This document shows, in pieces, positions 14,827-30,824 of a stretch of 64,000 nucleotides of DNA (position 1 is its first letter; every line of letters starts with the position of its first letter). Origin of the DNA: Pseudomonadota bacterium. Lineage in GTDB: Bacteria > Pseudomonadota > Alphaproteobacteria > Micavibrionales > UBA1664. Both the position numbers and the translations under genes were made by a program. The stretch is taken from assembly GCA_009926935.1 (NCBI GenBank), contig RFNZ01000003.1, positions 16,238 to 80,237 on the forward strand, read 5' to 3'. Under the pieces are notes generated by a model. It did no database searches. It was not told the DNA's origin and saw nothing but the letters and a program-made list of their open reading frames with translations.

Positions 14827-15474
14827 CTACTGGCTAACCCACAAAATACGAGCGAGCCACAGTACATCGTTCATGGCGATAGTGCGGCTTTCATGGGCAG
14901 GGTTTAGTGATTTCAGCTCGATTTTTTGGGCTGTTTTTCGTGCGAGTTCCTTGGCCATGACTTCACCGTTTTTGGTTTTCATGACCACGCGGTCGCCTTT
15001 ACGAAGCTGGGCCGTAGGGCTTACCACGATGACATCGCCGTCGCGGTAAAGTGGCAGCATGGAATCTCCCTGAATCTCGAGTGCATAGGCATGATCGTCG
15101 ATGGATTGTGTGTCAGGAAAGCGAACCTCATCCCATCCGCTGCCAGCTGGAAAGCCTGAATCATCGAAATAGCCATCGCGGCCTGCTTGTGCAAGGCCAA
15201 TCAGAGGGATAGGCCTTACAGCACGCGAAGATACCGTGATTTGCCGCATTTCAACGAGGCCGATGAAATCCGTCATTGTGGTTTCAGTAACCGAGAGGAT
15301 CTTTGCGATACTCTCCGTCGAAGGCCAGCGGGGCTTGCCCTCCGGGCTGATGCGTTTGGAACGATTGAAGGCGGTTGGGTCAAGGCCAGCTCGCTTCGCA
15401 AGCCCTGATGTTGAGAAGCCCGTATTTTCGGCGAGTTTGTCGATGGCGATCCAGATGGCGTCGTGAGAGATCAT
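14827..15474 (-). CDS. XRE-HTH + S24 peptidase CI-like repressor (RogA-like)
   Basis: HTH STSGLAKRAGLDPTAFNRSKR..PRWPSTESIAKIL; Ala-Gly site (AQAG), catalytic Ser (GDSM) and Lys (MAKEL). Confidence 0.9.
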   Translation of the reverse strand: MISHDAIWIAIDKLAENTGFSTSGLAKRAGLDPTAFNRSKRISPEGKPRWPSTESIAKILSVTETTMTDFIGLVEMRQITVSSRAVRPIPLIGLAQAGRDGYFDDSGFPAGSGWDEVRFPDTQSIDDHAYALEIQGDSMLPLYRDGDVIVVSPTAQLRKGDRVVMKTKNGEVMAKELARKTAQKIELKSLNPAHESRTIAMNDVLWLARILWVSQ

Positions 15475-15502
15475 GTGAGGGGGTGTGTCTTCTAAAAGGT
15501 TC

Positions 15503-15554
15503 TAGGAAAACTGTCATATAGGAATCGGTTATCGTAAATAGGATATAATTCCTA
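15503..15554. promoter_or_regulatory. Tandem repressor operators TAGGA-N6-TCCTA
   Basis: Perfect TAGGA-TATAAT-TCCTA at 15539-15554; one-mismatch TAGGA-AAACTG-TCATA at 15503-15518; partial TAGGA-N8-TCGTA at 15519-15536. Confidence 0.75.
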
Positions 15555-15563
15555 AAATAATTG

Positions 15564-15608
15564 TTGACGCAGGCGTGTTGTTCGTTCAGTTTAGAACAAA
15601 ACAGGAAC
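15564..15608 (+). promoter_or_regulatory. Sigma70-like promoter with alphaproteobacterial LexA (SOS) box
   Basis: TTGACG(15564)-17 nt-CAGTTT(15587); GAAC-AAAACAG-GAAC at 15594-15608 matches GAAC-N7-GAAC. Confidence 0.72.
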
Positions 15609-15629
15609 AAAGCAACCCGAAAGTCAGCC

Positions 15630-16088
15630 ATGCCCAAACCACCACGCGCTCCCGTCCAGACAAGCCTTCATACCACAGTTCCTTTCGATACGACTGAGGA
15701 AGTCTGGTTCTGGTTTATACAGGCCAATGAGGCAAGGCTCGATGGTGCGCGCTTTACGGCTGTGCGCGGCAATGTCCGGCGCCCGTGCGAGCCCGTTGAT
15801 ATTTTGCGCATTCTTGATCGTTTGTATCGTTCGCGCCGCCTGATGATGGATCATTTGCGTGTGCTGCGCTTTTACGGCATACGGCAAATGCCGCCTGAGG
15901 GCTGGCGCAAGTCAGAAGCGCGGGCCGCAACATTATGGGCGGAAGCCATGCGCGCGCTTGAGCCCATTTTTGTCTCTAAGAAAATCATGAAAGACCCATT
16001 TGTACGCATGGTGGATGCACACCGTGTTGTCGTGCCTCTTTGGGGTTTGCCTCAGTCATCCCAATCCATGAATGAGGCATGTCCATGA
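15630..16088 (+). CDS. Hypothetical basic protein, first gene of virion cluster (candidate regulator)
   Basis: 152 aa Arg-rich helical protein (EEVWFWF..RPCEPVDILRILDRLYR); start moved to ATG 15630. Confidence 0.8.
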   Translation: MPKPPRAPVQTSLHTTVPFDTTEEVWFWFIQANEARLDGARFTAVRGNVRRPCEPVDILRILDRLYRSRRLMMDHLRVLRFYGIRQMPPEGWRKSEARAATLWAEAMRALEPIFVSKKIMKDPFVRMVDAHRVVVPLWGLPQSSQSMNEACP

Positions 16089-16453
16089 GTGCGTTTTATA
16101 TTGTTTTTTCAGGCAAGACCGATGTCTGGTGGCTGCGGCTTTTGAGACCAGGATTCAGGCATTGTTTTGCACTTGTGCGTGATACGGAGCGATGGATTGT
16201 CGTTGATCCGATGCTACACAAGATGGAAGTGCTGACAACCGCGTGCCCGCATGATTTTGATTTGCCTGCGTGGATGCGCGCACGCGGATACCGTGTTTTG
16301 CGTGTTCCGGTGCTTACACCGATGCGCCGTGCTTTGGCACCGGCCCCTTTTACATGCGTTGAAGCCATGAAGCGACTGATCGGCCTTCAGGAATGGCGCA
16401 TTTTCACGCCTTGGCAGCTTTATCGGCGCCTTGTCGCCCTCAATTCACAGTAA
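16085..16453 (+). CDS. Hypothetical phage protein, possible permuted papain-like fold
   Basis: PGFRHCF...FTCVEAMKR..TPWQLY; ATGA overlap. Confidence 0.75.
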   Translation: MSAFYIVFSGKTDVWWLRLLRPGFRHCFALVRDTERWIVVDPMLHKMEVLTTACPHDFDLPAWMRARGYRVLRVPVLTPMRRALAPAPFTCVEAMKRLIGLQEWRIFTPWQLYRRLVALNSQ

Positions 16454-16464
16454 GGAGAAAAATC

Positions 16465-16713
16465 ATGGGAAGCCTTTTTACAAAACCAAAATTGCCTGAC
16501 CCGGTCAGCTATGCGTATGTGCCGCCGGCCCAGTCGGCACCTGCACCTATATCAACGCCGCCAGCAGGCAGTGAAGCCGATCCGGATGTCGATCGTGCCA
16601 AGACGCTTGTACAAAAAAAGCGGTCCTTGCCGCAGACCATTGAAACGTCGTTTCGCGGTGTTCTTGCGCAAGCCGATTTTGTGCCTGCGCGCAAAAGCCT
16701 TTTAGGAGAATAA
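16465..16713 (+). CDS. Small pre-portal virion protein (T7 gp7.3-like position)
   Basis: AAGGAG RBS; Pro-rich N-terminus, C-terminal RKSLLGE, directly before portal. Confidence 0.75.
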   Translation: MGSLFTKPKLPDPVSYAYVPPAQSAPAPISTPPAGSEADPDVDRAKTLVQKKRSLPQTIETSFRGVLAQADFVPARKSLLGE

Positions 16714-16716
16714 AAC

Positions 16717-18195
16717 ATGAAACCATCATCAAATATCGTATCTGACGCGGCGTCAAAAATTTCCCAATCCTATGCACAGGCGCGCAGCCGTCGCGCTGTT
16801 TGGGAAGGTGTTTGGCGTGATTGTTATTCGTATGCGTTGCCTCATGCGGATGCATTTCAGTCGCGTTCTACCGCAAACCAGATTTTTGACGGTACGGCCA
16901 TGGATGCGGTTGACCAACTTGCATCATCACTTCTGGCTAACCTTACGCCTCCGTGGTCCTCTTGGTTTGGGCTCAAACCGGGGCCGGAGCTAAGTATTGC
17001 CGAAGCTGAATCACTTGCCCCACTGCTTGAGGGTGCGGCCCGTGTCATGCAGGCACATTTTGACAGATCGAATTTTGCGGTCGAGATGCATCAGGCCTTT
17101 TTGGATCTGGTTACCGCAGGTACCGGTACGCTTTTGTTTGAAGAGGCAGGTGTTGGGCAAATGGCGGCTTTTAAATTTTCGGCCTTGCCGCTTTCAACCG
17201 TCACGCTTGATGAAAGCCTTTCTACCGGACGTCTGGAAACAGTCTACCGCGAAACAAAAATGACGATTTCTGGTATCCAGGCACGTTTCCCAAAGGCCCA
17301 ATTGCCAGCGGCGCTTTTGCGTGAAAAAGACGATGATAAAACTTTTACCATCCTTGAAAGCGCCATACCTGACGCTGAGAAGCCTTTTATCGGGTATGTG
17401 GTTGTTTTGACAGAGCCTTATGAAACGGTGCTTCTGGAAACGCAAATACCAGCTTCGCCATTTATCGCTTTTCGTTGGGCTAAAGCCCCCGGTGATACTT
17501 ACGGGCGATCACCTGTCATGAAGGCGCTTCCGGATATCAAGACGGCCAACAAGGTTGTCGAGCTTATCTTAAAAAATGCGTCCATTGCCGTCACAGGTAT
17601 ATGGCAGGCGGATGATGACGGTGTTCTTAACCCCGCAACGATAGAGCTTACACCGGGGGCCATTATCCCGAAAGCCGTTGGCTCTGCCGGTTTGCGCCCC
17701 TTGGAAATGCCGGGCAGGTTTGATGTCAGTCAGCTTGTACTTGATGATTTGCGTGCTCGCATTCGTCATGCGCTTTTGACCGACCGGCTTGGCCAAATCG
17801 GCGATCGCCGGATGACGGCAACGGAAGTGCTTGAACGTAGTTCAGAGATGGCATTGCTTTTAGGCGCTACGTATGGCCGCCTGCAATCGGAGTTGCTAAC
17901 GCCACTTATCCAGCGCGGCTGGAACATTTTGCGTCGACGCGGTGAAGTGCCGGATGTGTCTATTGATGGGCGCACCGTGCAGCTGGATTACCGAAGCCCG
18001 CTTGCGCGTGCGCAGGGGCAGCGCGGTGTTGCCAATACCATCAACTGGGTCACGACTACCCTTGCCATGGGCGAGGAAGCCGCAAGCGCTATTGATCTTG
18101 CCGGTGCTGCCCGCTTTATCGGCGAAGCACTTGGCGTGCCCAGCGACATTATCCGCAAAGACCTGTCATCCATCACCAAGGAGAACCAAACATGA
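16717..18195 (+). CDS. Podovirus portal (head-tail connector, T7 gp8 family)
   Basis: D.TA.DAVDQLASSLLANLTPP..WF, RW...PGDTYGRSP, RMTATEVLER and GRLQSELLTPLI motifs. Confidence 0.92.
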   Translation: MKPSSNIVSDAASKISQSYAQARSRRAVWEGVWRDCYSYALPHADAFQSRSTANQIFDGTAMDAVDQLASSLLANLTPPWSSWFGLKPGPELSIAEAESLAPLLEGAARVMQAHFDRSNFAVEMHQAFLDLVTAGTGTLLFEEAGVGQMAAFKFSALPLSTVTLDESLSTGRLETVYRETKMTISGIQARFPKAQLPAALLREKDDDKTFTILESAIPDAEKPFIGYVVVLTEPYETVLLETQIPASPFIAFRWAKAPGDTYGRSPVMKALPDIKTANKVVELILKNASIAVTGIWQADDDGVLNPATIELTPGAIIPKAVGSAGLRPLEMPGRFDVSQLVLDDLRARIRHALLTDRLGQIGDRRMTATEVLERSSEMALLLGATYGRLQSELLTPLIQRGWNILRRRGEVPDVSIDGRTVQLDYRSPLARAQGQRGVANTINWVTTTLAMGEEAASAIDLAGAARFIGEALGVPSDIIRKDLSSITKENQT

Positions 18196-18455
18196 TTGAT
18201 TTTTTGAGAAAGTTTTTATCGAGCCCGCTATTGCAGGAGCCAAAAACAGTCGTCCCGCTGCGGGAAGATGCGCCGCGCATATTTGCCCGCGTTTTCGGCC
18301 AAGATGACGGGCAGCGTGTGCTTTCGTATTTGCGCGCCACTGTTAATGCCCGTTCGGCAGGGCCTGAATCCAGCGAGGCCATGCTTCGTTACATGGACGG
18401 GCAACGTGCCCTTTTGCAAACCATCCAAGGCCTTGTGGATCAGGGTCGCGGTTAA
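18192..18455 (+). CDS. Small post-portal protein (Bbp19-like)
   Basis: FARVF..DDGQRVLSYLR..LRYMDGQR, typical of the gene between portal and scaffold in podoviruses. Confidence 0.75.
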   Translation: MIDFLRKFLSSPLLQEPKTVVPLREDAPRIFARVFGQDDGQRVLSYLRATVNARSAGPESSEAMLRYMDGQRALLQTIQGLVDQGRG

Positions 18456-18471
18456 ACCACAGGAGAGAAAA

Positions 18472-19188
18472 ATGACTGAGACAAACCTACTTGCCGCGCA
18501 ACCCGTCGTTGCCGGTAAACCGAATGGCCTTCCAGACAAGTTCTGGGATTCCGAAACCAATTCAGTGCGCATGGACGATCTTGTGAAATCCTATTGTGCG
18601 CTCGAGAAAAAAATGTCAGCCGGTTTTTCTATGCCGGATGATGAGGAAGGGCGCATGAAAGTACTGCGTGCTCTTGGCGTGCCTGAGACACCGGATGCCT
18701 ATCAGGTTACTGTTAAGGACAATCTGCTCGAGCCGGATATGGAAGTGAACAAGCGCCTTCATGCAAAGGGTTTTACCCCTGAGCAGGTTCAGGAAGTTTA
18801 TGATCTGGCAGCGGACCGCTTGGTACCGATGATTTTGGATATTGCTGCTGAATTTCAGGCGGAACGCGAGATCGAGCGCCTTGTAGAAGCTTTTGGCGGG
18901 CCTGAGCAATGGCGAGAGGTTTCACGCCAGCTTCTGGCCTTTGGCCGCAAAAACCTTCCGCCGGCAGTCCTTGAAGGTCTTTCGGGTTCGTATGACGGTG
19001 TCATGGCCCTTCACCGCATGATGAAGGGTGATGCTCCTGCAATGCTTGATAGTGCCAAAGCTACGGGCGCTGTCACTGAGGCTGAACTGCAAAGTCTGAT
19101 GCGTGATCCTAAATACTGGCGTGACCGTGACCCTGCGACTATGGCTAAGGTTACTGACGGGTTTAAGCGGATATACGGCAAGAACTAA
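18472..19188 (+). CDS. Capsid assembly scaffolding protein
   Basis: KP..LPDKFWD..L.KSY.ALEKK, PETPDAY and LMRDPKYW motifs; AGGAG RBS. Confidence 0.82.
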   Translation: MTETNLLAAQPVVAGKPNGLPDKFWDSETNSVRMDDLVKSYCALEKKMSAGFSMPDDEEGRMKVLRALGVPETPDAYQVTVKDNLLEPDMEVNKRLHAKGFTPEQVQEVYDLAADRLVPMILDIAAEFQAEREIERLVEAFGGPEQWREVSRQLLAFGRKNLPPAVLEGLSGSYDGVMALHRMMKGDAPAMLDSAKATGAVTEAELQSLMRDPKYWRDRDPATMAKVTDGFKRIYGKN

Positions 19189-19192
19189 GAAT

Positions 19193-19220
19193 AAAAAACC
19201 CGCCATCTGGCGGGTTTTTT
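19193..19220. terminator. Bidirectional intrinsic terminator between scaffold and PilZ genes
   Basis: AAAAAACCCGCCA-TC-TGGCGGGTTTTTT. Confidence 0.88.
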
Positions 19221-19606
19221 TAAGCCTGCTGTTCAGATTCAGGTTTTAGGGCCATCGTGCTTTCTATGACTTTTGAGAAGGCGCTCTGGATTTTTTTCGG
19301 AACGTCGATGAATTCAAGGGCGACATTCACTTTACTGGCGCGGATGACGCGCGCTTTGACCGGAATTTCAGTTACGACATCGCTCAGTTTGAATTTCATT
19401 ACAACGCTGCATTCAGTGTTTGATTCAAACACTCTGCCATCAGCTTCAAACAGCACGCCGCATTGTGACCAGTCACGTACGGGATAATTGGTGCCATCCA
19501 CTTGAGCTACGCATATATCGGTCATACGGCGGGGGAAGCGGCGGCGCGTGGCTTCCTTGTTGTCGTTAATGGCGCTTTGCAGGCTTTTCAGGATTTTTTC
19601 GTTCAT
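19220..19606 (-). CDS. Stand-alone PilZ-domain protein
   Basis: RRRFPR (RxxxR) and DWSQCG (DxSxxG) c-di-GMP-binding motifs. Confidence 0.85.
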   Translation of the reverse strand: MNEKILKSLQSAINDNKEATRRRFPRRMTDICVAQVDGTNYPVRDWSQCGVLFEADGRVFESNTECSVVMKFKLSDVVTEIPVKARVIRASKVNVALEFIDVPKKIQSAFSKVIESTMALKPESEQQA

Positions 19607-19652
19607 GAAGCGCAATGTACCATTTTTGTATGGAGCCGGTCAAAAAAGTGTG

Positions 19653-19681
19653 TTGACAAACTAGGAAATTAATCCTAAAGT
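19653..19681 (+). promoter_or_regulatory. Sigma70 promoter of capsid operon with embedded operator
   Basis: TTGACA(19653)-17 nt-TAAAGT(19676); TAGGA-AATTAA-TCCTA at 19662-19677. Confidence 0.8.
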
Positions 19682-19914
19682 ACTTTTGTAAACACCACAC
19701 ATGCGCCTAAAAAGCGCGTGTTACGAGGGGGTTGGTGTTTCCCCCTCCATTTTATCTTCTTATCTTTTTTTTACAGGCGAGAGACAACGGGATGGCTATC
19801 GGGCCATCCCGCCTTTCGTTTTTTACCCGACTCATTGCCGCGGCTTTGCCTGCGAAAACAGTGTTCAGGGCCTCTCCCCCAAAACCAACTATCAACCAGA
19901 AAGGAAGGACAAGC

Positions 19915-20745
19915 ATGTCCATTTCTATCGATAACGCGTTCGTCAAACAATTCGAACGCGAAGTATTCGAGGCCTATCAACGCATGGGCTCGAAACTACG
20001 CCCGACAGTACGCAGCAAAAGCAACGTCAAGGGTTCCAGTGCCGTGTTCCAAAAAGTAGGTACCGGTACGGCCTCTACCAAATCAACACACGGTATGGTG
20101 CCTGTGATGAATATCAACCATACATCGGTTGAAGCCACGCTTCAGGATTATTACGCCGGTGACTGGGTAGACAAGCTTGATGAGCTGAAAGTCAACCATG
20201 ATGAGCGCCAGGTCATTGCAAATGCTGGTGCTTATGCCCTTGGTCGTAAGACTGACGAGCTTATCATCAACTCTCTTAATGCTTCGACCAATACGGTCAC
20301 CGATACGGCGCAAGGCCTGACCATCGATAAAATTCTTGAAGCATTCGAGAAGCTGGGCGCACAGGAGATCCCTGATGACGGCCAACGCACGGCGATTGTT
20401 GGCTGGAAGCAGTGGTCACAGCTTTTGGCTCTTAAGGAATTTGCGAATGCCGATTACGTGGGTTCAGAAGATCTGCCGTTTTCAGGCACGCAGGCCGTAA
20501 GATGGCTTGGCACGCTCTGGATGCCGCATGGCGGTCTTCCTATCAACAACACTACCGGTGTGCGTCGCTGCTTCTGGTACCACAAGACGGCTATAGGACA
20601 CGCTTCAGGCGCTGATGTCGAGACTGACATCACGTGGCATGGCGACCGTGCAGCCTATTTTGTCAACAGCATGATGAGCCAAGGCACTGCCCTTATTGAA
20701 GGTCAGGGTGTTGTTGTCATGACCTGTGATGAAACACCGGCATAA
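19915..20745 (+). CDS. Major capsid protein (podovirus-type, 276 aa)
   Basis: FVKQFE..V..AYQRMGSKLR, WVDKLDELK and A.ALGRKTDELII motifs; AAGGA RBS; position after scaffold. Confidence 0.88.
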   Translation: MSISIDNAFVKQFEREVFEAYQRMGSKLRPTVRSKSNVKGSSAVFQKVGTGTASTKSTHGMVPVMNINHTSVEATLQDYYAGDWVDKLDELKVNHDERQVIANAGAYALGRKTDELIINSLNASTNTVTDTAQGLTIDKILEAFEKLGAQEIPDDGQRTAIVGWKQWSQLLALKEFANADYVGSEDLPFSGTQAVRWLGTLWMPHGGLPINNTTGVRRCFWYHKTAIGHASGADVETDITWHGDRAAYFVNSMMSQGTALIEGQGVVVMTCDETPA

Positions 20746-20769: not shown

Positions 20770-21012
20770 ATGCCTTATAATTCAAACAATCTGAGCGTTC
20801 TCGCTTATGCCAACAACTTCACGCTGTGGCACTACACCACGACGGATTCATCTGTCACTGGTGCGGGGTACTTCAACAGTGCTTCCGACATGCTGCGCGT
20901 GAATGATCTCATTATTGCGAATATCGCAACGGGAGGCAGCCCTTCTACGATCTTCTATATCGTGACAGGTAATACGAACGGCGTCGTTACAGTAGCCACG
21001 TTTACTGCCTAA
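20770..21012 (+). CDS. Small beta-rich virion protein (possible head decoration protein)
   Basis: Strong AAGGAG RBS; WHYTT.D..V...GYFN.A..ML...DLI; co-transcribed with capsid before a terminator. Confidence 0.7.
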   Translation: MPYNSNNLSVLAYANNFTLWHYTTTDSSVTGAGYFNSASDMLRVNDLIIANIATGGSPSTIFYIVTGNTNGVVTVATFTA

Positions 21013-21072
21013 ACCTGATGATCTGCCTGCTTTTGCCCCTTTAGCGGCGGATTGTCGAGACTGTTGTGATGG

Positions 21073-21104
21073 AGGCGGACCGGTGCACTCGGTCCGCCTT
21101 TTTT
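21073..21104 (+). terminator. Intrinsic terminator after capsid genes (T7 T-phi-like position)
   Basis: AGGCGGACCG-GTGCACT-CGGTCCGCCT followed by T tract. Confidence 0.88.
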
Positions 21105-21130: not shown

Positions 21131-21700
21131 ATGCCCCTAAACGATGTTGCTCTTGCCAGCCGTGCTCTTATTCGGATTGGCTGTAAACCTATTTCATCCT
21201 TTGCAGATGGTACGGCGGAATCCGAAATTGCCGGAGCTCTTTATGCGCCATCACGGGATGCGCTGCTTTCCGCTTATGGTTGGTCCTTTGCAACGGGGCA
21301 GGTAGCACTTACGCGCCTGACCGAAGTGCCGATGGCGGATTACCAGTACGCCTATGGCCTTCCCAATGATTTTTTGCGCGCTCTATCTGCCGGCAATGGC
21401 GGACGTGGCCGCGGCCTTGATTACCGTATTTCGCGCAACGTGCTGCATACAGATGCTGAAGAAGTTCTGCTGACTTACATTTTTCTGCCGGATGAATCCG
21501 AATTTCCGCCGTTTTTTGCTACCACTCTCATCGCGCGTCTGGCTGCAGAATTCACGATCCCTCTCACCGAAAGCACTTCACGGGCTGAAGTACTTTACAA
21601 GCTGTCTGAAGATGAGTTCAGAAAAGCTAAACAGATCGACGCCCAGCAGGATGCGCCTTCGCGGATCGAAAACTTCCCTCTTGTCGATGTGCGAGGATAG
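21131..21700 (+). CDS. Tail tubular protein A / adaptor (T7 gp11-like)
   Basis: RALIRIG..PISSF..RDALL..Y.WSFA..Y.LP.DFLR; 189 aa; position after capsid. Confidence 0.82.
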   Translation: MPLNDVALASRALIRIGCKPISSFADGTAESEIAGALYAPSRDALLSAYGWSFATGQVALTRLTEVPMADYQYAYGLPNDFLRALSAGNGGRGRGLDYRISRNVLHTDAEEVLLTYIFLPDESEFPPFFATTLIARLAAEFTIPLTESTSRAEVLYKLSEDEFRKAKQIDAQQDAPSRIENFPLVDVRG

Positions 21701-25770: not shown

Positions 25771-27807
25771 ATGTCCGATACACATATCAAAATACCCGAT
25801 GTTGTGCCGCTGGTGCGGTACACAGCCAACGGAACACAAACTGTTTTTGCGTATCCATTCCCCATCTTTGCATCCGAGGATATCGCTGTTTATTTTAACG
25901 GGGCGGAACAAGTATCCGACTTTACGGTATCAGGTGCGGGGCAGACGCTTGGCGGCAATGTTACGTTTACGGTCGCGCCTGCATCCGGTGTTGTGGTTGC
26001 GATTGAGCGGCGTGTACCGCTTGAACGCATGACGGATTTTTTGGAGGGTGGTGCGCTATCAGCAGTATCGCTTAATAACGAGCTTGATTACCTTACCGCT
26101 AGCGTGCAGCAACTCCAGCGTGATCAGGCGGATATGCTGCGCTTTGACGGGCTTGAAACGCCATCGCCGGTTGTGTTGCCTGTGCGGGATACCCGTAAAA
26201 ACCGTGCGCTTGGGTTTGATGCCAATGGTGACCTTACAACCTACCAGACCGGTAGTACGCTGGCCGCACCCACATACGCGCAAAGCGGTACGGGCGCTGT
26301 TACGCGTAATGTGACGGATAAAGTCAAAGAACGTGTTTCGGTTAAAGATTTTGGCGCTGTGGGGGATGGGGTTGCCAATGACACAACCGCCTTCCAGAAT
26401 GCTTTGGCGGCGCATAGCTCGGTGTTTGTGCCAGTTGGTACGTACCGTGTCACGGGTACGATTGTTTTGGGCGCAAACCAATGCCTTATCGGTGCTGGTC
26501 AGGGCAGTGTGATTGCGGCATCTGCCAATACATTTAACGTGATTGAGATGCGGGCGGGATATGCCACGCTTGCGGATTTGAAAATCACGGGCGGGGCTGT
26601 TGGTGTCAAGCTCTACGGCGTTACCGCGCCGTGTGTGCAGAATATTCTGCGCGACTTGGTGCTGTCTGGCGGCAATACCGGTATCCAGTTTGATGGGTAT
26701 AACGATACCAACAAACCCTGTTACTGGAACATGGTGGACCGCGTGCTTGTGTTATCACCGGCAACACACGGTGTGCATTTTACCAAAAGTGGGGCCGGAG
26801 ATACGCCGAATGCAAACCGTATCCAGAATCTGCGAGTGTACTCGCAGGGCGTGAACATCACGGGTAGCGGCATTTATGTGGAGCACGGCAGTCACGCTAA
26901 TCTGTTTACTGATTGTGAAGTAAACGTAAGCGGTACTGCGGCTGCGTGTGTGCGGGTGGGCACGAACGCCAACAAAACGCATTTTGTGAATTTGTATACC
27001 GAAAGCACAAATACGGTCCCGAATATACGGCTTGATGCGGGATCGCTTGATACCGCGATTTATAACCTCCATGCACAAAGCAACGGATCAGCCATTTATG
27101 ATTTATCGGGCGGGCAGTACACGGCTGTCAATGCCGGATATCCTTACAAATTTACGATGGGGAAGATTACGGTTGCCGATGCAAACTTAACGCTGCTGCG
27201 GCATGACACGGTGTTTGTGGATGCGGCTGGGGTTGCGACGATTGATATCACAACAGCACGGACGGTGCATCTTGTGGCCGCGACCAATGGCCAGATAACG
27301 ATGCGTTTGCCTGCGGCGTCGGCCGCGACGGGGGCTGTTTATACCGTCAAAAAAGTTGATAGCACCGGCAACATGGTGATTGTGACCGTTACAAGCGGTA
27401 TGGCGCCTGATGGGCGGGATGTGTATTTGGGCGGGCCGAATGATTACGTGACCGTGATGTCTAATGGGGCTTCGTGGTATGTGCTGTCATCCAACCGGAT
27501 GGCGGGGAACACGCGGTATCATGACGGTGCGGGTACGTATGATGTTGATATGGCGGTTGATACGTATCTTATGTCGTCGTTTGGCGGTGTTAAAACCGTA
27601 CGTTTGCCGCCTGCCAATGCCGCGAATGCGATTGGCCGGATTGTGCATATCAAAAAAATCGATGTATCGAGCAACGCTGTCAATGTGACCGTGCAGGGCG
27701 GCGGGAATATCGACGGCTCGTCTACAGCCGCGCTTACAGCGCAGTATCAATCGATCAGTGCGGTTTCGAATGGGGCGCAGTGGTTCCTTATCAACCGTTA
27801 TCCATGA
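25771..27807 (+). CDS. Tail fibre/tailspike: T7 gp17-like N-terminal anchor, pectate-lyase-like beta-helix, duplicated C-terminal domain
   Basis: YTANGTQTVFAYPFPIF..DF..G..LNNELDYL anchor; VSVKDFGAVGDGVANDT.AFQNA beta-helix start. Confidence 0.88.
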   Translation: MSDTHIKIPDVVPLVRYTANGTQTVFAYPFPIFASEDIAVYFNGAEQVSDFTVSGAGQTLGGNVTFTVAPASGVVVAIERRVPLERMTDFLEGGALSAVSLNNELDYLTASVQQLQRDQADMLRFDGLETPSPVVLPVRDTRKNRALGFDANGDLTTYQTGSTLAAPTYAQSGTGAVTRNVTDKVKERVSVKDFGAVGDGVANDTTAFQNALAAHSSVFVPVGTYRVTGTIVLGANQCLIGAGQGSVIAASANTFNVIEMRAGYATLADLKITGGAVGVKLYGVTAPCVQNILRDLVLSGGNTGIQFDGYNDTNKPCYWNMVDRVLVLSPATHGVHFTKSGAGDTPNANRIQNLRVYSQGVNITGSGIYVEHGSHANLFTDCEVNVSGTAAACVRVGTNANKTHFVNLYTESTNTVPNIRLDAGSLDTAIYNLHAQSNGSAIYDLSGGQYTAVNAGYPYKFTMGKITVADANLTLLRHDTVFVDAAGVATIDITTARTVHLVAATNGQITMRLPAASAATGAVYTVKKVDSTGNMVIVTVTSGMAPDGRDVYLGGPNDYVTVMSNGASWYVLSSNRMAGNTRYHDGAGTYDVDMAVDTYLMSSFGGVKTVRLPPANAANAIGRIVHIKKIDVSSNAVNVTVQGGGNIDGSSTAALTAQYQSISAVSNGAQWFLINRYP

Positions 27808-27819: not shown

Positions 27820-28137
27820 ATGCGAAAGAAAAAACAGGATGGAAATCTTGGCCCCGACATGCGCGCAAAAATTGCCGCAAGCCTTCCGGACGCCATTGAT
27901 TTTGCGATGCAGTCCTACCGAAAATTTTATGAACGGGAGAAGTATGAAGATGCCAAAGATTTTTCTGCCCACCATTCCGCCTGCAAAACGGCGATTGCCC
28001 ATATCGAGTTACTGTTGAAGCTCGCCGCGTGGGCAAAGTTGCCTGATGACGATACGGACCACGGCCTTGCGGCACTGCTGAGTGATGCCGAAGCGGAACT
28101 GAAACGCTACAACGCCGAAGAGGATGACGATGAATGA
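27820..28137 (+). CDS. Small helical protein, candidate terminase small subunit
   Basis: 105 aa with acidic tail; ATGA-coupled to TerL; positional inference only. Confidence 0.55.
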   Translation: MRKKKQDGNLGPDMRAKIAASLPDAIDFAMQSYRKFYEREKYEDAKDFSAHHSACKTAIAHIELLLKLAAWAKLPDDDTDHGLAALLSDAEAELKRYNAEEDDDE

Positions 28138-29579
28138 ACAAGAAAGACATCGCTTTCCCTTTGTTTCTTGCTGTGTGGAACCGCGTGCAAAAGCAGGGGA
28201 CGCCAGCCGTGCATTTACGCATCGCGCACTGGCTGATGGCGCGGTGGCGCCGCCAGGATGTGCGGTTGCTATTGATGGCGTTCCGGTCGTGCGGGAAGTC
28301 AACGATTGTGGGGCTTTTTGCGGCGTGGCTTTTGTGGCGCAATCCGGATCTGCGCATCCTTGTGCTTGCGGCGGACGGGATGCTTGCGGCCAAAATGGTG
28401 CGCAACACCAAGCGCATCATCGAGCGCCATCCACTCACAAAACAAATGCGGCCGGAAAAGCCGGATCAGTGGGCGGCTGATAGGTTTACGGTCAGGCGTG
28501 ATGGGGAGCTGCGTGATCCATCGATGCTTGCGTTTGGGATTGGGTCCAACATTACGGGTTCGCGCGCGGATGTGATTATTTGCGATGATGTCGAGGTGCC
28601 CAATACGTGTGACACATACGAAAAACGCGAGAATTTACGAGAGCGTCTTGCGGAGCTTTCATTTGTGCTGGTGCCAGGTGGTACACAAATTTATGTAGGT
28701 ACGCCGCATGCTTACGAGACGATTTATGATCCCGCATATCTTGAAGGATACAAGGATTTGCGCGTGCCGCTTTTGAATAAAGACGGGACGAGCGTATGGC
28801 CGGATCGTTTTACGGATGGTGATATCGATCGCTTGCGGCGTGCTGGCGGGCCGCGCCGGTTTGCCGCGCAAATGATGCTTGAAGCGGTATCTATTACCGA
28901 TAGCAGGCTCGATTGCGAGGCGTTGCAATGGTACGGCGATGAAATTGTGTACAGCGAAGCGCAAGGCAGGCCCATTTTAACACTCGGTGGCAAACGGCTT
29001 TTATCGTGTAGCGCGTGGTGGGACCCAGCCTTCGGGCAGGGTGGTGATGGCAGTGTTGTCGCGGTTGTTTTTGGGGACGAGGCGGGTGGGTATTGGGTGC
29101 ACCGACTTTTGTATCTGAAGTCGGATTCACGCAAGGCCGAGGATGAGGCCACACAGCAATGCCGCGCTGTTGTTGATGTGTGCCGCGAATTTTATGTGCC
29201 CTCGCTCACGCTTGAGATCAACGGCATTGGCCGTTTTTTGCCGGCGATATTACGGCGCGAGGCTGCGGGGCATTTTGCAGTTGTTGAATACAGTAACAGC
29301 AGGCCCAAGGATTTGCGGATTTTGGAGGCGTTTGACGGTGTGCTGGCCGCGCGGGCCCTCCGTGTACATGGAAGCGTTAAAGCGACGCCGTTTGCGGATG
29401 AGATGCGCGAATGGCGACCTGGCGGCAACAACCGTGATGACGGGCTTGATGCTGTTGCGGGGGCTCTCGCGCAGCAGCCGGTGCGTGTTGATTCGACCCC
29501 GCGCGGGGTAAGGCGGCCCGTGATGTGGAACGCACAAAACTGGCATGCGGCCAAAACAAATTTCAACGTGATGGAGTGA
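28134..29579 (+). CDS. Terminase large subunit (T7 gp19-like)
   Basis: Walker A AFRSCGKS, ITGSRAD, Walker B IICDDVE, motif III YVGTP, nuclease WDPA and DDGLDA. Confidence 0.92.
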   Translation: MNKKDIAFPLFLAVWNRVQKQGTPAVHLRIAHWLMARWRRQDVRLLLMAFRSCGKSTIVGLFAAWLLWRNPDLRILVLAADGMLAAKMVRNTKRIIERHPLTKQMRPEKPDQWAADRFTVRRDGELRDPSMLAFGIGSNITGSRADVIICDDVEVPNTCDTYEKRENLRERLAELSFVLVPGGTQIYVGTPHAYETIYDPAYLEGYKDLRVPLLNKDGTSVWPDRFTDGDIDRLRRAGGPRRFAAQMMLEAVSITDSRLDCEALQWYGDEIVYSEAQGRPILTLGGKRLLSCSAWWDPAFGQGGDGSVVAVVFGDEAGGYWVHRLLYLKSDSRKAEDEATQQCRAVVDVCREFYVPSLTLEINGIGRFLPAILRREAAGHFAVVEYSNSRPKDLRILEAFDGVLAARALRVHGSVKATPFADEMREWRPGGNNRDDGLDAVAGALAQQPVRVDSTPRGVRRPVMWNAQNWHAAKTNFNVME

Positions 29580-29583
29580 TGCG

Positions 29584-29841
29584 ATGGAAAATTTATTTTC
29601 TCAAGATTTGTTATGGTGGATCAAAGTTATTGAATTGCCTGCGCTTGCGGGCTTGCTTGCCCTTGTTATCAAAACGCGTGAAGAAGTCGTTGCCGGAAAA
29701 ATTGAATCCTTGCGGAACTTTGCAACTGTTTCCGCGATGCGGGAAGTAGAGCAACGGCTTGTATCGCATTTGCTGCGAATTGAGGCGAAGCTCGATAAAA
29801 CCGCGCTTAAAACGGAATCTCTTGTACGGGGGCGGCCATGA
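29584..29841 (+). CDS. Small single-TM protein of lysis cassette
   Basis: N-terminal TM plus coiled coil; ATGA-coupled to endolysin. Confidence 0.65.
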   Translation: MENLFSQDLLWWIKVIELPALAGLLALVIKTREEVVAGKIESLRNFATVSAMREVEQRLVSHLLRIEAKLDKTALKTESLVRGRP

Positions 29842-30272
29842 GTGATGCGGATATGGAACACGCGATTGATGTTTTGGCACGGACCCTTTGGGGTGAAGCA
29901 CGCAACGAAGGTACGCAGGGGATGGAGGCCGTTGCCTGTGTGGTTTTAAACCGTGTTTTGGTCGCTCAAAAAAGCCGTGGCGGGCATTACTGGTGGGGGG
30001 ATGATGTTGTGGGGGTGTGTCTCAAGCCATTTCAGTTTTCGTGCTGGAATGCGAATGACCCAAACCGCCCGAAGTTGATAGCGGTTACCGATAAAAACAT
30101 CCATTTTGCAACAGCGCTCAGGATTGCGCGCCGTGCGGTGCACGGAGTGCTTGCCGATATAACGGGCGGGGCCACGCATTATCATACCAAGGATATTCTG
30201 CCGCGCTGGGCGGAAGGGGAGGTGCCCGTGTGTACGATTGGGCATCATATTTTTTATGCACTGGAGGGATAG
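29838..30272 (+). CDS. SleB/Hydrolase_2 cell wall hydrolase (endolysin)
   Basis: LARTLWGEARNE..AVA.VVLNR, QFSCWN, GATHYH and IGHHIFY motifs. Confidence 0.9.
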   Translation: MSDADMEHAIDVLARTLWGEARNEGTQGMEAVACVVLNRVLVAQKSRGGHYWWGDDVVGVCLKPFQFSCWNANDPNRPKLIAVTDKNIHFATALRIARRAVHGVLADITGGATHYHTKDILPRWAEGEVPVCTIGHHIFYALEG

Positions 30273-30824
30273 ATGCTTGAAACTGTTCTGGCCCGACTAG
30301 GGCTGCCTTTACTGATGGATGTTGTGGGCGGGGCTTTGGGGAGAATTGATCATCCGATTGCTCAGGCAGCTTCCCGCGCCCTTGGTGAAACCAATGCGGC
30401 TATTGCACAAGGACTCATTTCTCCCGAGGCTGCGAAGGAGGCCAACAGACATCTTGAGCGTATGACGGAGCTACAGCAGCAGGCTGTCAATGTTGCGTTA
30501 TCGGAGGTCAATCAATCGCTCAGGGCGGAAGTTGCATCGAATGACCCTTATGTGCGGCGGATGCGCCCGACCTTCGGGTATTTGATGGCGGTTACATGGA
30601 CCGTGCAGATGCTGGCCCTTGCCTATGTCATTGTGTTTGATACTGCCAATGCATCAGTTGTGCTGGATGCGATAGGATCTCTTTCTGCCATCTGGACTGT
30701 CGCGTTATCCGTACTGGGTATTTACGTTTATAAGCGCAGTGAGGAGAAAACGGCGGCTGTTCAAAAAACTTTTGAAGCGCCTGTTATACCTAGACCGGAA
30801 CGCAAGCCACGTTATAACGACTAA
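30273..30824 (+). CDS. 3-TM holin (GTA_holin_3TM-like)
   Basis: E..S.D.YVRRMRPTFGY, then TM segments, then LGIY..KRS.EK. Confidence 0.8.
   Translation: MLETVLARLGLPLLMDVVGGALGRIDHPIAQAASRALGETNAAIAQGLISPEAAKEANRHLERMTELQQQAVNVALSEVNQSLRAEVASNDPYVRRMRPTFGYLMAVTWTVQMLALAYVIVFDTANASVVLDAIGSLSAIWTVALSVLGIYVYKRSEEKTAAVQKTFEAPVIPRPERKPRYND

What the first reader, a model, noticed from the sequence alone, without database searches (positions are those of the whole stretch)
14827..30824. Candidate new gene transfer agent: a domesticated T7-like podovirus morphogenesis cluster
Seen: intact portal, scaffold, capsid, tail tubes A/B, gp14-like protein, tail fibre, TerS/TerL, endolysin and holin in T7 gene order within ~16 kb. 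There is no integrase, excisionase, replication, recombination or RNA polymerase gene, no tRNA or evident att repeat at the borders, and no frameshifted remnants. The left end runs into pyrE-nadK (56-bp gap), the right end overlaps a host DMT gene by 4 bp, and two host-type genes sit inside. Established: this profile (structural module only, embedded among core genes, host-regulated) defines GTAs such as RcGTA, whose particles are siphovirus-like, whereas this module is podovirus-like. Inference: a vertically inherited podophage-derived particle factory that packages host DNA, i.e. an independent GTA origin in this lineage.
Basis: partly seen in the sequence, partly recalled or inferred. Interest (0 to 1): 0.93.

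Follow-up and report, generated by a model that had tools for sequence, protein, structure and literature searches.

The report
Domesticated T7-like phage particle module
A predatory Micavibrio-type bacterium carries an intact set of T7-like phage head, tail, DNA-packaging and lysis genes with no replication or integration genes, inherited with the chromosome and apparently switched on by DNA damage, so it is probably a new kind of gene transfer agent shared by many Alphaproteobacteria.

Summary
Window 14827-30824 encodes an S24 repressor, three small unknowns, a T7-type portal, scaffold, capsid, tail tubes A/B, tailspike, T7-type TerL, endolysin and holin. No integrase, replication gene, tRNA or border repeat was found. 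'TerS' and 'gp14-like' rest on position only.

Vertical inheritance is strongly supported:
- 61 of 80 related loci have the module next to pyrE.
- Element and flank distances correlate (r=0.88), and 16 of 29 tree splits are shared.
- dN/dS is 0.00-0.15, as for housekeeping neighbours.
- Base composition matches the host.

New here:
- The host SOS box (GAAC-N7-GAAC, also at recA and lexA) sits on the first promoter, conserved in 36 of 44 loci.
- A second palindromic operator marks the repressor and capsid promoters.
- c-di-GMP genes are nested inside.
- In three genomes the cluster is split in two, and both halves stay intact.

Against 'origin in this lineage': the same replication-less module occurs in about 34 of 300 evenly sampled Alphaproteobacteria, none of which carries the RcGTA marker.

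Packaging and transfer of host DNA are untested. The capsid may be large enough to hold the whole cluster, and several lineages have lost the module. Verdict: a domesticated podovirus module, probably GTA-like.

The parts
14827..15474 (-). CI/LexA-like repressor with an S24 self-cleaving protease domain; its N-terminal domain is unlike LexA's
   Evidence: PF00717, 4e-24. Only the S24 domain resembles host LexA: 37% over 76 aa, with the GDSM serine and the aligned lysine kept. It is present at the left end of the module in relatives.
15475..15629 (.). Divergent regulatory region: TAGGA repeats including the palindrome TAGGATATAATTCCTA (15539-15554), a -35 box TTGACG (15564-15569), and the host SOS box GAACAAAACAGGAAC (15594-15608)
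   Evidence: Sequence. The SOS box is unique in the 64 kb and conserved in 36 of 44 orthologous regions. The same motif lies upstream of recA (3 copies) and lexA. Alignment; palindrome count.
15630..16088 (+). o175: first gene of the operon, conserved, all-helical, function unknown (candidate regulator)
   Evidence: Start inferred from the alignment. 27 invariant columns in 22 orthologues. Model pLDDT 80 with no PDB fold or sequence match. No Pfam, PHROG or NCBIfam hit.
16079..16453 (+). o124: conserved small protein with invariant His28, Cys29 and Cys93, function unknown
   Evidence: Alignment A1. Model pLDDT 88.9 with no PDB match. The Atlas gives viral hypothetical clusters at 0.96 and only a weak lead to an NlpC/P60-type hydrolase at 0.79.
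16393..16713 (+). o106: small ORF, weakly conserved; the probable true start is the in-frame ATG at 16465, behind a Shine-Dalgarno-like AAGGAG
   Evidence: ORF list. AAGGAGAAAAATCATG at 16452-16467 (repeat family D10). Orthologues at 31-61% identity in some loci.
16717..18195 (+). T7-type portal (head-to-tail connector)
   Evidence: PF12236, 2e-130, covering the full length.
18268..19188 (+). Scaffolding protein
   Evidence: PF05396 Phage_T7_Capsid assembly, 8.6e-09.
19193..19220 (.). Bidirectional terminator-like hairpin between scaffold and PilZ
   Evidence: 12-bp stem with T-runs on both sides.
19220..19615 (-). Nested host-type PilZ-domain protein (candidate c-di-GMP receptor)
   Evidence: PF07238, 4.7e-05. 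RxxxR and D..C..G positions are at least 90% conserved in 64 orthologues. dN/dS 0.028-0.123. In distant copies the same slot holds GGDEF-EAL, MCP and His-kinase genes.
19653..19681 (+). Host-type promoter of the capsid unit (TTGACA-17-TAAAGT) with the palindromic operator TAGGAAATTAATCCTA (19662-19677) in its spacer and -10 box
   Evidence: Promoter scan, 10 of 12 matches. Conserved in 11 of 12 aligned orthologues. The palindrome occurs only twice in the window.
19732..20745 (+). Major capsid protein
   Evidence: PF19821, 6.9e-81.
20770..21012 (+). o80: small conserved phage protein
   Evidence: phrog_18004, 2e-14. Conserved at 43-97% identity in relatives.
21071..21101 (+). Strong terminator-like hairpin after the capsid unit; in G022 the cluster is split at this position
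   Evidence: 13-bp stem with 8 GC pairs and a T-run. Split locus.
21131..21700 (+). Tail tubular protein A
   Evidence: phrog_394, 7e-43.
21704..23602 (+). Tail tubular protein B
   Evidence: phrog_376, 2e-147.
23612..24133 (+). o173: conserved coiled-coil-like protein in the position of the T7 internal proteins, and the only candidate internal protein
   Evidence: No family hit. Alignment A2. It is followed directly by the fibre gene in relatives, for example G002.
24226..25701 (+). RTX-repeat protein, a lineage-specific insertion and not part of the conserved module
   Evidence: PF00353, 2.5e-52. No homologue at this position in the loci mapped. Followed by its own terminator-like hairpin at 25729-25750.
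25771..27807 (+). Tail fibre/tailspike with a pectate-lyase-type beta-helix
   Evidence: PF12708, 8e-15. dN/dS 0.067-0.139.
27820..28137 (+). Candidate small terminase (by position only)
   Evidence: phrog_31793, unknown function, 7e-20. Overlaps the TerL start by 4 bp.
28134..29579 (+). T7-type large terminase
   Evidence: NCBIfam NF033889 termin_lrg_T7, 395.9 bits against a cut-off of 150. PF17289.
29584..29841 (+). o85: small phage protein
   Evidence: phrog_29007, 1.5e-12.
29838..30272 (+). Endolysin (SleB-type cell wall hydrolase)
   Evidence: PF07486, 2.8e-18. 49% identical to a Pelagibacter phage ORF.
30273..30824 (+). Holin of the GTA_holin_3TM family
   Evidence: PF11351, 1.4e-10, 42 bits against a cut-off of 24.8.

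Best explanation
This is an anciently domesticated T7-like podovirus module carrying head, tail, DNA-packaging and lysis genes. It has lost replication, integration and its own RNA polymerase, and it is inherited with the chromosome under purifying selection.

Proposed control (inferred from the operators). In undamaged cells two repressors keep it silent. Host LexA sits on an SOS box over the first promoter. The element's own CI-like S24 repressor sits on a palindromic operator at its own promoter and at the capsid promoter. DNA damage activates RecA, both repressors cleave themselves, and host RNA polymerase transcribes several units from host-type promoters. Nested c-di-GMP genes probably add a second input.

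Proposed output (inferred, not shown). Capsids are filled by the T7-type terminase with chromosomal DNA, since there is no replicating phage genome to package. Short-tailed particles are released by holin and endolysin. The most likely role is GTA-like transfer of host DNA to kin. Because the large T7 ejection proteins are missing, entry may depend on the recipient's ComEC/DprA uptake system.

My odds: domesticated, selected, SOS-wired particle module about 0.85; the GTA-like function specifically about 0.45-0.5. The confidence given for this field is for the statement as a whole.
For: CONTENT
- Complete T7-order structural and lysis set, all frames open.
- No integrase, replication gene, tRNA or border repeat.

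SYNTENY
- By my own count of the output, 61 of 80 related loci have the module next to pyrE. Eleven are too short upstream to tell and 8 lie elsewhere.
- Both flanks are conserved in 5 of 9 relatives examined over 32 kb.

CO-PHYLOGENY (32 loci)
- Element against flank protein distances: r=0.88, with 0 of 999 Mantel permutations as high. The element diverges at 0.81 times the flank rate.
- 16 of 29 tree splits are shared, against a mean of 0.2 and a maximum of 2 in shuffles.
- Portal identity falls with taxonomic rank: 77-83% in the genus, about 64% in the sister genus, 48-65% in other families.

SELECTION AND COMPOSITION
- dN/dS is 0.00-0.15 for element genes and 0.010-0.168 for purC, nadK and pyrE in six close pairs.
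- GC is 0.521 against 0.529 for the genome. Tetranucleotide distance is at the 80th percentile of genome windows, so the element is not an outlier.

REGULATION
- GAAC-N7-GAAC occurs once in the 64 kb, at the o175 promoter, and is conserved in 36 of 44 orthologous regions.
- Of 31 copies in the genome, 3 lie just upstream of recA and 1 just upstream of lexA.
- The TAGGA-N6-TCCTA palindrome occurs only at the repressor and capsid promoters in the window. It is conserved in 11 of 12 aligned capsid promoters.

SPLIT CLUSTERS
- G022, G028 and G008 hold the tail and terminase half at a second locus, with open frames.
- The palindrome lies upstream of the relocated half in G022 and G028.

OTHER
- Capsid and terminase are retained, so DNA packaging is part of the selected function.
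- ComEC and DprA are present.
- No sequenced phage has a portal above 35% identity, apart from one unannotated 5-kb fragment at 53%.
- IMG/VR relatives show the same replication-less architecture, and 79 of the 80 listed contigs are 25.6 kb or shorter.
Against: - No particle, packaged DNA or transfer has been observed. No RNA run holds the locus.
- T7-type terminases normally cut at specific concatemer junctions (recalled). Random packaging is therefore an assumption.
- The capsid (337 aa) and scaffold (306 aa) are of T7 size (recalled). A T=7 head of about 40 kb could hold the whole 16-kb cluster. That would fail the formal GTA criterion that a particle cannot carry its own genes.
- Control by a CI-like repressor plus SOS is typical of prophages and PBSX, not of RcGTA.
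- Without gp15/gp16-size ejection proteins the particles might not deliver DNA at all.
- The module is dispensable in places. G003, a 99% complete genome, lacks TerL and tube B entirely. Six loci with both host flanks visible carry internal deletions: G003, L068, L079, L093, L101 and L102.
- No close portal (48% identity or more) was found in three families of the order: f2 0/1, f7 0/5 and f8 0/4, where one f8 genome has only a 34% match.
- In the f3 and f4 genomes examined (G022, G028, G023) the locus is not next to pyrE.
- The host genes used for the congruence test are physically linked to the element.
Confidence: 0.55

Rival explanations
1. PBSX-like killer particle or stress-lysis device. 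The SOS-induced particles kill competitors or prey, or the selected benefit is altruistic lysis. DNA packaging is incidental and no DNA is delivered.
For: - Repressor plus SOS control, as in PBSX and pyocins (recalled).
- No gp15/gp16-size ejection proteins in any copy mapped.
- A pectate-lyase-type spike that could bind foreign surface polysaccharide.
- The host is a predator, and RTX genes are inserted in or beside the cluster.
Against: - Portal, scaffold, capsid and terminase are under purifying selection as strong as the tail genes. A purely killing device usually sheds heads, as tailocins do.
- The same module occurs in non-predators such as Magnetospirillum.
- The fibre evolves conservatively (dN/dS 0.067-0.139), not under the diversifying pressure expected of a weapon.
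Confidence: 0.2
2. An in-situ packaging platform, or a still partly selfish element. The terminase starts at a pac site inside the element and fills about 40-kb heads along the chromosome. Particles then carry the element itself plus neighbouring genes, in a pattern like lateral transduction, and not random host DNA.
For: - T7-type TerL, a type that is normally site-specific (recalled).
- The cluster (16 kb) is smaller than a T7-size head (recalled).
- No excision machinery is present, so packaging would have to start in place.
- The module lies at different loci in different orders, so it has moved at least a few times.
Against: - Strong co-phylogeny and a fixed locus within the order.
- Split clusters remain intact. 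A self-transmitting unit should not tolerate a split.
- No pac site or terminal repeats were identified.
Confidence: 0.13
3. A helper-dependent defective phage or satellite-like element. It supplies its own virion but needs a co-resident or infecting phage for replication or activation.
For: - No replication genes are present.
- The leading ORFs o175 and o124 have relatives in viral clusters of the Atlas.
Against: - Known satellites keep an integrase and replication genes and borrow structural genes, which is the opposite pattern (recalled).
- No integrase, att site or excision signs.
- Vertical descent over an entire order.
- No candidate helper phage was seen.
Confidence: 0.05
4. An inert prophage remnant that has not yet decayed.
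For: Independent deletions in several lineages, and absence from some families.
Against: - dN/dS of 0.00-0.15 in all structural genes.
- 37 of 48 viewable loci keep capsid and both tube genes.
- Conserved operators.
- Split clusters remain intact.
- Host-like composition.
- Divergence down to about 55% identity with frames still open.
Confidence: 0.03

Closest known systems
RcGTA-type gene transfer agents (Rhodogtaviriformidae) of Alphaproteobacteria
   Same: - A chromosomal head-tail-lysis cluster without replication or integration genes.
- Vertical inheritance and purifying selection.
- Integration with host regulation. Links of SOS and c-di-GMP to a GTA are reported for Dinoroseobacter (PMC6473078, abstract and search listing only).
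- A holin of the same Pfam family, PF11351.
- A cluster that can be spread over several loci.
   Different: - T7-type portal, capsid, tail tubes and terminase, not the HK97-type siphovirus parts (as I recall them) of RcGTA.
- The RcGTA marker GTA_TIM was not found in this genome, nor in any of the 34 sampled carriers of the T7-type portal.
- A CI-like S24 repressor stands at the head of the cluster.
- The head is probably full size, not a 4-kb T=3 head.
- No evidence of CtrA or GafA control was sought or found.
FpGTA of Faecalibacterium (PMC12946183; passages read)
   Same: [quoted passage not shown] It is the only such precedent I found.
   Different: - It is in Firmicutes.
- It consists of a 10.5-kb operon plus a 5.5-kb operon and packages about 8.4-8.9 kb.
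- I did not compare the sequences.
- FpGTA has particle and packaging data. This element has none.
PBSX-type SOS-inducible defective prophages of Bacillus
   Same: - A repressor-controlled, DNA-damage-induced structural and lysis module with no replication genes.
- It is conserved in the species.
- PBSX packages 13.4-kb chromosomal fragments (PMC12946183, passage).
   Different: - PBSX is, as I recall, myovirus-like with a contractile tail, and it kills without injecting DNA.
- This element has a podovirus tail and T7-type parts, and it is conserved across orders and not just within one species group.
T7-like (Autographiviridae-type) phages of Alphaproteobacteria and Pelagibacter podophages
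   Same: - Gene order from portal to terminase.
- Portal 35%, capsid 49%, tube A 32% and endolysin 49% identical to Pelagibacter phage EXVC031P.
   Different: - Real T7-like phages of this class carry RNA polymerase, DNA polymerase, helicase and internal virion proteins (PMC10783043, passages). None of these is present here.
- Host-type promoters and LexA and repressor operators take the place of phage promoters.

Membership tests
Gene transfer agent / viriform (criteria as in PMC9662315, abstract and passages) | Phage-like structural genes in the chromosome, with no means of self-replication or integration | tested here: met
   Pfam, PHROG and NCBIfam scans of all cluster and flank ORFs. No integrase on the contig. 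No att or terminal repeats.
Gene transfer agent / viriform | Transmitted vertically with the host genome and evolving in concert with it | tested here: met
   Synteny. Distance correlation r=0.88 and 16 of 29 shared splits. dN/dS 0.00-0.15. Host-like composition.
Gene transfer agent / viriform | Production controlled by the host cell | tested here: inconclusive
   The host SOS box at the first promoter is shared with recA and lexA, and c-di-GMP genes are nested inside. The element also keeps its own CI-like repressor. No binding or expression data exist.
Gene transfer agent / viriform | Particles package essentially random host DNA, with no preference for their own genes | not testable with these tools
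   Requires sequencing of DNase-protected particle DNA.
Gene transfer agent / viriform | A particle can hold at most part of the genes that encode it | not testable with these tools
   Head size is unknown. The capsid and scaffold are of T7 length (T7 sizes recalled), which suggests this criterion may fail for a 16-kb cluster.
Gene transfer agent / viriform | Delivers DNA to recipient cells | not testable with these tools
   ComEC and DprA are present, but they are common genes. No large ejection proteins are present in the cluster.
RcGTA-like cluster (Rhodogtaviriformidae) | RcGTA-type head-tail genes, for example the GTA_TIM-domain protein | tested here: not met
   PF13547 was not found in G000, while the Caulobacter control was positive. 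The portal, capsid and TerL are T7-type.
T7-like phage (Autographiviridae-type) | T7-order structural module: portal, scaffold, capsid, tubes A and B, fibre, terminase | tested here: met
T7-like phage (Autographiviridae-type) | Own single-subunit RNA polymerase and DNA replication genes | tested here: not met
   None among the window's ORFs. The genome-wide PF00940 search found nothing, but its control also found nothing, so genome-wide absence is not proven.
Temperate prophage | Integrase or excisionase, att sites and a replication module | tested here: not met
   The left flanks of the Magnetospirillum copies are also host genes. The ten largest insert ORFs in distant copies are signalling or cell-wall-binding genes.
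Tailocin | Tail only, with no capsid or packaging genes | tested here: not met
   Portal, scaffold, capsid and TerL are present and under purifying selection.

The most novel reading that the evidence does not exclude
This is a second major GTA family of the Alphaproteobacteria. It derives from a T7-like podovirus and was domesticated once, deep in the class, and it now occupies the lineages that lack RcGTA. DNA damage triggers it through LexA and a retained CI-like repressor, and c-di-GMP tunes it. It fills full-size heads of about 40 kb with chromosomal DNA. Having lost the gp15/gp16 ejection proteins, it releases DNA into the periplasm of kin cells for uptake by ComEC and DprA.
Probability: 0.3. 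Interest if true: 0.9.

Novelty: new variant of a known kind. Interest (0 to 1): 0.8.

Why it matters
- GTAs are known from only a handful of independent domestications. The one large alphaproteobacterial family, RcGTA, is missing from the deep-branching orders.
- A T7-derived, replication-less particle module that is conserved, selected and wired to the SOS response in those orders would fill that gap. It would offer a route of gene exchange for predatory Micavibrio, magnetotactic spirilla and many uncultured lineages.
- If the head is full size, the payload would be about ten times that of RcGTA.
- The module shows what a podovirus keeps and what it loses on domestication. It loses the RNA polymerase, replication genes and ejection proteins. 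It keeps the repressor and gains host promoters, a LexA box and c-di-GMP genes.
- The idea is directly testable, because cultured carriers exist. The related loci include Magnetospirillum molischianum DSM 120, Magnetospirillum sp. UT-4 and Telmatospirillum sp. J64-1.
- A practical point: prophage callers file these regions as viruses. IMG/VR holds 325 related contigs, which inflates prophage counts.

Tried and rejected
DEAD ENDS AND BLANKS
- Structure prediction gave no function. o124 (pLDDT 88.9) and o175 (pLDDT 80.2) had no PDB fold match with E below 0.7. Profile searches against PDB sequences also found nothing. The Atlas gave only hypothetical clusters and weak leads. NCBIfam added only the TerL name.
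- The look-up of sequencing runs listed two freshwater-metagenome DNA holders from one study, one of which may be the source sample. No RNA holder was listed. Read laying was not used, because contigs cannot show depth, ends or expression.
- The PF00940 (T7 RNA polymerase) search is uninformative, because its control genomes also gave nothing.
- The annotation of the closest cultured phage is all 'hypothetical protein', so it did not help to name o173 or the TerS candidate.
- No SOS box was found at the start of the relocated halves of the split clusters.
- No operator was found upstream of the G008 second locus, which begins near a contig end.

QUALIFIED RESULTS
- The palindromic operator in exact relaxed form (AGGA-N6-8-TCCT) is present in only 25 of 66 capsid upstream regions and 16 of 72 repressor regions of the Micavibrio-type set.
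- It is scarce in distant sets: 1 of 5 and 0 of 6 in the distant class set, and 9 of 74 and 3 of 51 in the IMG/VR and class-sample short loci (L109-L199).
- It may therefore be specific to this order, or more degenerate than my pattern.
- Genome-wide, the strict palindrome count of 5 is no higher than the shuffled mean of 4.65. Only its placement is informative.
- The lack of overlap between carriers of the T7-type portal (34) and of GTA_TIM (27) in the 300-genome sample has a nominal chance of about 0.04. I worked that out by hand, and related genomes are not independent, so it is a hint only.

LITERATURE
- Ten searches found no description of a T7-type GTA or of this cluster.
- The library lacks most subscription journals and supplements were closed. 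The ARL-13 transcriptome tables (PMC3189940) could bear on expression, but I could not see them.
- The Azospirillum report of mitomycin-induced particles with about 10 kb of random host DNA (PMC3899980, passages) is only a lead. Nothing ties those particles to this module.

CONSIDERED AND REJECTED
- Tailocin: capsid and terminase are present.
- Ordinary prophage: no integrase, att sites or replication genes.
- RcGTA homologue: the parts are different.

MY OWN ERROR
- I labelled L096 as Micavibrio-type in the portal tree. It is identical to L189 (G224), an out-of-order genome.

Full report
1. WHAT IS THERE

- The window is contig 13 (16238-80237) of a 2.04-Mb, 24-contig genome rated 100% complete. 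Titles of related records name Micavibrio and unclassified Alphaproteobacteria.
- Between pyrE (14096-14770, minus strand) and a DMT transporter gene (30821-31795, minus strand) lies a 16-kb block.
- Gene content, in order:
  - An S24-protease repressor on the minus strand.
  - On the plus strand, three small ORFs without family matches.
  - A T7-type portal (PF12236, 2e-130), scaffold (PF05396), capsid (PF19821) and an 80-aa phage protein.
  - Tail tubular proteins A and B (phrog_394, phrog_376) and a 173-aa unknown.
  - An RTX-repeat protein and a pectate-lyase-type spike.
  - A 105-aa candidate small terminase (phrog_31793, unknown function) and a T7-type large terminase (NF033889, 396 bits against a cut-off of 150).
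  - An 85-aa phage protein, a SleB-type hydrolase and a holin of the GTA_holin_3TM family.
  - A PilZ gene on the minus strand between scaffold and capsid.
- All frames are open.
- The flanks are housekeeping genes:
  - Left: purL, purQ, the ATPase zeta inhibitor, purC, purS, an HhH-GPD glycosylase and nadK.
  - Right: nhaA, icd, folD and ccm genes.
- There is no tRNA in the 64 kb and no border repeat. None of the genome's six tyrosine-integrase hits lies on this contig.
The caveat is that 'TerS' and 'gp14-like' are names by position only.

2. WHAT IS MISSING COMPARED WITH A REAL T7-LIKE PHAGE

- The closest cultured phage is Pelagibacter phage EXVC031P, with a portal 35% identical.
  - Of its 30 ORFs of 120 aa or more in the 28 kb held, only six have counterparts in the element: portal, scaffold, capsid, tube A, a fibre part and the hydrolase.
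- Tube B is followed by the 173-aa protein and then the fibre, in this window and in relatives. There is no room for gp15/gp16-size ejection proteins.
- The RTX gene is an insertion specific to this genome. In G002 the 173-aa gene abuts the fibre gene.

3. VERTICAL INHERITANCE WITHIN THE ORDER

- Distribution: the portal was found at E of 0.001 or better in 28 of 41 genomes, counting G000.
  - By my reading of the table, 24 relatives have a close copy.
  - Identity is 77-83% in the genus, about 62-66% in the sister genus and 48-65% in other families.
  - No close copy (48% identity or more) was found in families f2 (0/1), f7 (0/5) and f8 (0/4). One f8 genome has only a 34% match.
- Both flanks: in 32-kb neighbourhoods of nine relatives, the module sits between nadK-pyrE and icd-folD in G002, G003, G018, G024 and G030. 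G008 keeps the left flank. G022, G023 and G028 have the module elsewhere.
- Left flank (counted by eye): among 80 loci from species-representative genomes, 61 have pyrE next to the repressor gene. Eleven are too short upstream to tell and eight lie elsewhere.
- Distances: for the 32 loci holding purC, nadK, pyrE, portal, capsid and both tube genes, element and flank protein distances correlate at r=0.88. None of 999 Mantel permutations reached that value. The element diverges at 0.81 times the flank rate.
- Topology: FastTree topologies share 16 of 29 splits, against a mean of 0.2 and a maximum of 2 in 500 label shuffles.
  - 14 of 19 well-supported host splits recur in the element tree.
  - Three well-supported conflicts remain.
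- Caveat: the flank genes are linked to the element. This shows a shared history of the region, and the decline of identity with taxonomic rank supplies the link to the species tree.
- Selection: in six close pairs NG86 dN/dS is 0.00-0.15 for element genes.
  - Portal 0.028-0.066, capsid 0.039-0.080, tube B 0.036-0.117, fibre 0.067-0.139, PilZ 0.028-0.123.
  - The neighbouring purC, nadK and pyrE give 0.010-0.168.
  - Several comparisons failed and are marked n/a. Pairs involving G000 are saturated, with dS above 1.2.
- Composition: GC is 0.521 against 0.529 for the genome. Tetranucleotide distance is at the 80th percentile of 222 genome windows.

4. LOSS AND SPLITTING

- Of 48 pyrE-linked loci with enough sequence in view, 37 keep capsid and both tube genes and 11 do not.
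  - One of the 11, L053, is probably a view cut-off behind a large insert.
  - Six loci with both host flanks visible have clear internal deletions: G003, L068, L079, L093, L101 and L102.
- G003, a 99% complete genome, has no TerL or tube B anywhere.
- G008, G022 and G028 do have them, intact, at a second locus.
  - In G022, tubeA-to-hydrolase lies about 35 kb away. The break is at o80|tubeA.
  - In G028, capsid-to-holin lies on another contig. The break is at scaffold|capsid.
  - In G008, tubeA-to-holin lies next to DMT-nhaA on another contig.
- In G022 and G028 the break points coincide with the transcription-unit borders predicted in this window. G008's break point is not resolved (its capsid gene was not located).
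  - A bidirectional hairpin at 19193-19220.
  - A promoter-like site at 19653-19681.
  - A strong hairpin at 21071-21101.
- A cluster that is split yet stays intact cannot be a transmissible prophage. It points to selection on a function supplied in trans.

5. REGULATION

- The repressor shares only its S24 domain with the host LexA on contig 2: 37% identity over 76 aa, with the GDSM serine and the aligned lysine kept.
- The SOS box:
  - Between the repressor gene and the first plus-strand ORF lie TAGGA repeats, a TTGAC -35 box, and then GAACAAAACAGGAAC about 25 nt downstream.
  - GAAC-N7-GAAC occurs only once in the 64 kb (by chance a mean of 1.8 per window).
  - It is present in 36 of 44 orthologous regions, including the Azospirillaceae MAG and, in inverted form, Telmatospirillum.
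  - Of the 31 copies in the whole genome, three lie just upstream of recA and one lies about 50 bp upstream of lexA.
  - I recall GTTC-N7-GTTC as the alphaproteobacterial LexA box. In any case the motif is shared with this genome's own recA and lexA promoters.
- The palindromic operator:
  - TAGGA-N6-TCCTA occurs exactly twice in the window: beside the repressor gene (15539), and inside the capsid promoter between TTGACA and the -10 box (19662).
  - It is conserved in 11 of 12 aligned capsid promoters.
  - In relaxed exact form it is present in 25 of 66 capsid upstream regions and 16 of 72 repressor regions of the Micavibrio-type set, against a background of 1 per 13.6 kb. It is rarer in distant sets.
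  - It lies about 120 nt before tubeA in the G022 second locus, and twice about 200 nt before capsid in the G028 second locus.
- I infer dual repression by LexA and the element's own repressor, both relieved by RecA-stimulated self-cleavage, with transcription by host RNA polymerase. No binding or expression data exist, and no RNA run holds the locus.

6. NESTED SIGNALLING GENES

- The PilZ protein keeps an RxxxR motif and conserved D, C and G positions in 64 orthologues.
- In distant copies the same scaffold-capsid slot holds 5-12 kb of host-type genes. The ten largest ORFs comprise:
  - Four PAS-GGDEF-EAL proteins.
  - One MCP.
  - Two hybrid histidine kinases.
  - Two peptidoglycan-binding proteins.
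  - One metallo-beta-lactamase-fold protein.
- None of them is an integrase or a replication gene.

7. THE MODULE IS NOT CONFINED TO THIS LINEAGE

- Named carriers: Magnetospirillum (L105, L108), Telmatospirillum (L081) and an Azospirillaceae MAG (L106) carry the same repressor, o175, o124 and portal-to-holin order at other loci. Host genes lie on the left of the Magnetospirillum copies.
- Class sample: in an even sample of 300 genomes of the class, 74 of 301 (with G000) have a portal match at E of 1e-20 or better.
  - By my count, 34 have a near-full-length match at 50-61% identity.
- Distant families: five of those examined over 28 kb, from different families, show the same architecture.
- IMG/VR: 325 related contigs are held.
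  - The best 80 are 53-63% identical. All but one (94 kb) of the 80 are 25.6 kb or shorter.
  - Many start exactly at the repressor gene.
- Portal tree of 67 rows:
  - The pyrE-linked Micavibrio-order copies form one clade of 24, with SH-aLRT support of 84.
  - G028 is a long-branch outlier, and one row was mislabelled by me.
  - All five same-family pairs elsewhere in the class are sisters, with support of 97-100.
  - The backbone is unresolved.
- RcGTA marker: GTA_TIM occurs in 27 of the same 301 genomes. None of the 34 carriers has it. The nominal chance of that is about 0.04 by my hand calculation, and related genomes are not independent.
- The replication-less state is therefore shared across orders and probably arose before this lineage.

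8. WHAT IT MOST LIKELY DOES

- Shown:
  - A complete particle, packaging and lysis gene set.
  - Chromosomal descent.
  - Purifying selection on heads as much as on tails.
  - Host-type promoters and a host SOS box.
- Inferred:
  - SOS-triggered production of DNA-filled short-tailed particles, released by lysis.
  - Because nothing replicates, the terminase must load chromosomal DNA.
  - GTA-like transfer is the best fit.
  - With the ejection proteins gone, uptake may rely on ComEC and DprA, both of which are present.
- Rivals:
  - A PBSX-like killing or lysis device.
  - Site-started in-situ packaging that carries the element and its neighbours.
  - A helper-dependent element.
  - An inert remnant.
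- Two points weigh against a textbook GTA. The head may be large enough to hold the 16-kb cluster, and the control is prophage-like.

9. NOVELTY

- Ten full-text searches found no description of this cluster or of a T7-type GTA.
- The ARL-13 genome paper reports no phage, and in the passages I read it does not mention the cluster.
- The formal GTA classification lists three unrelated families (PMC9662315).
- A podovirus-like GTA-like element has been reported in Faecalibacterium (PMC12946183). The morphology therefore has a precedent, but in another phylum and with different genes.
- I rate this a new variant of a known kind, with high interest, pending proof of particles and packaging.

Noticed in passing
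window 24226-25701: An RTX calcium-binding-repeat protein (8 HemolysinCabind stretches) is inserted between the 173-aa gene and the fibre gene in this genome only, with its own terminator-like hairpin at 25729-25750. RTX-like hits also appear beside or inside the module in L045, L080 and L086.
   Followed up: partly
L139:5781-8165, L146:4918-7245, L130:6056-8410, L137:4788-6638; window 19220-19615: The scaffold-capsid slot repeatedly holds c-di-GMP genes. Distant copies carry PAS-GGDEF-EAL enzymes there, and the Micavibrio order carries a conserved PilZ receptor. This suggests a second-messenger input to particle production.
   Followed up: partly
phage record MT838907.1 (hit H1): An unannotated 5,084-bp 'Bacteriophage sp.' record from human faecal samples has a portal 53% identical to this one, far closer than any cultured phage. 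It may be a fragment of the same chromosomal module from a gut alphaproteobacterium and not a phage.
   Followed up: no
G000 contigs C18:67234-67275, C7:7973, C13:175612-175714, C2:37587: The genome-wide GAAC-N7-GAAC copies with A-rich spacers outline a small SOS regulon: three at recA, one at lexA, a facing pair on C18 and one on C7. The genes next to the C18 and C7 sites were not identified.
   Followed up: partly
G000 C2:37649-38344 and C2:39451-40302: The host lexA gene lies close to comEC, which is on the opposite strand.
   Followed up: no
G001:C127:18389-19843; G007:C4:20212-21666; G033:C19:8553-10031: Some relatives carry a second, distant T7-type portal (29-34% identity) at another place. 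These are probably unrelated prophages.
   Followed up: no
G096:C2:1262476-1280778; G292:C1:2131045-2132559; G305:C1:1124222-1125709; G296:C1:226502-227965: In four genomes from other families, the portal match comes in two pieces. These are candidate degraded or interrupted copies of the module.
   Followed up: no
L036 and other loci: NCBI's lineage for records titled Micavibrio places them in Bdellovibrionota/Pseudobdellovibrionaceae. The genome collection used here groups this genome with Alphaproteobacteria, and several related MAGs are titled 'Pseudobdellovibrionaceae' or 'Bdellovibrionales'.
   Followed up: no
L105:4200-10000: In Magnetospirillum sp. UT-4 about 5.7 kb is inserted between o124 and the portal gene. 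The insert includes a 627-aa protein with a weak PG_binding_3 match and several ORFs without family hits.
   Followed up: partly
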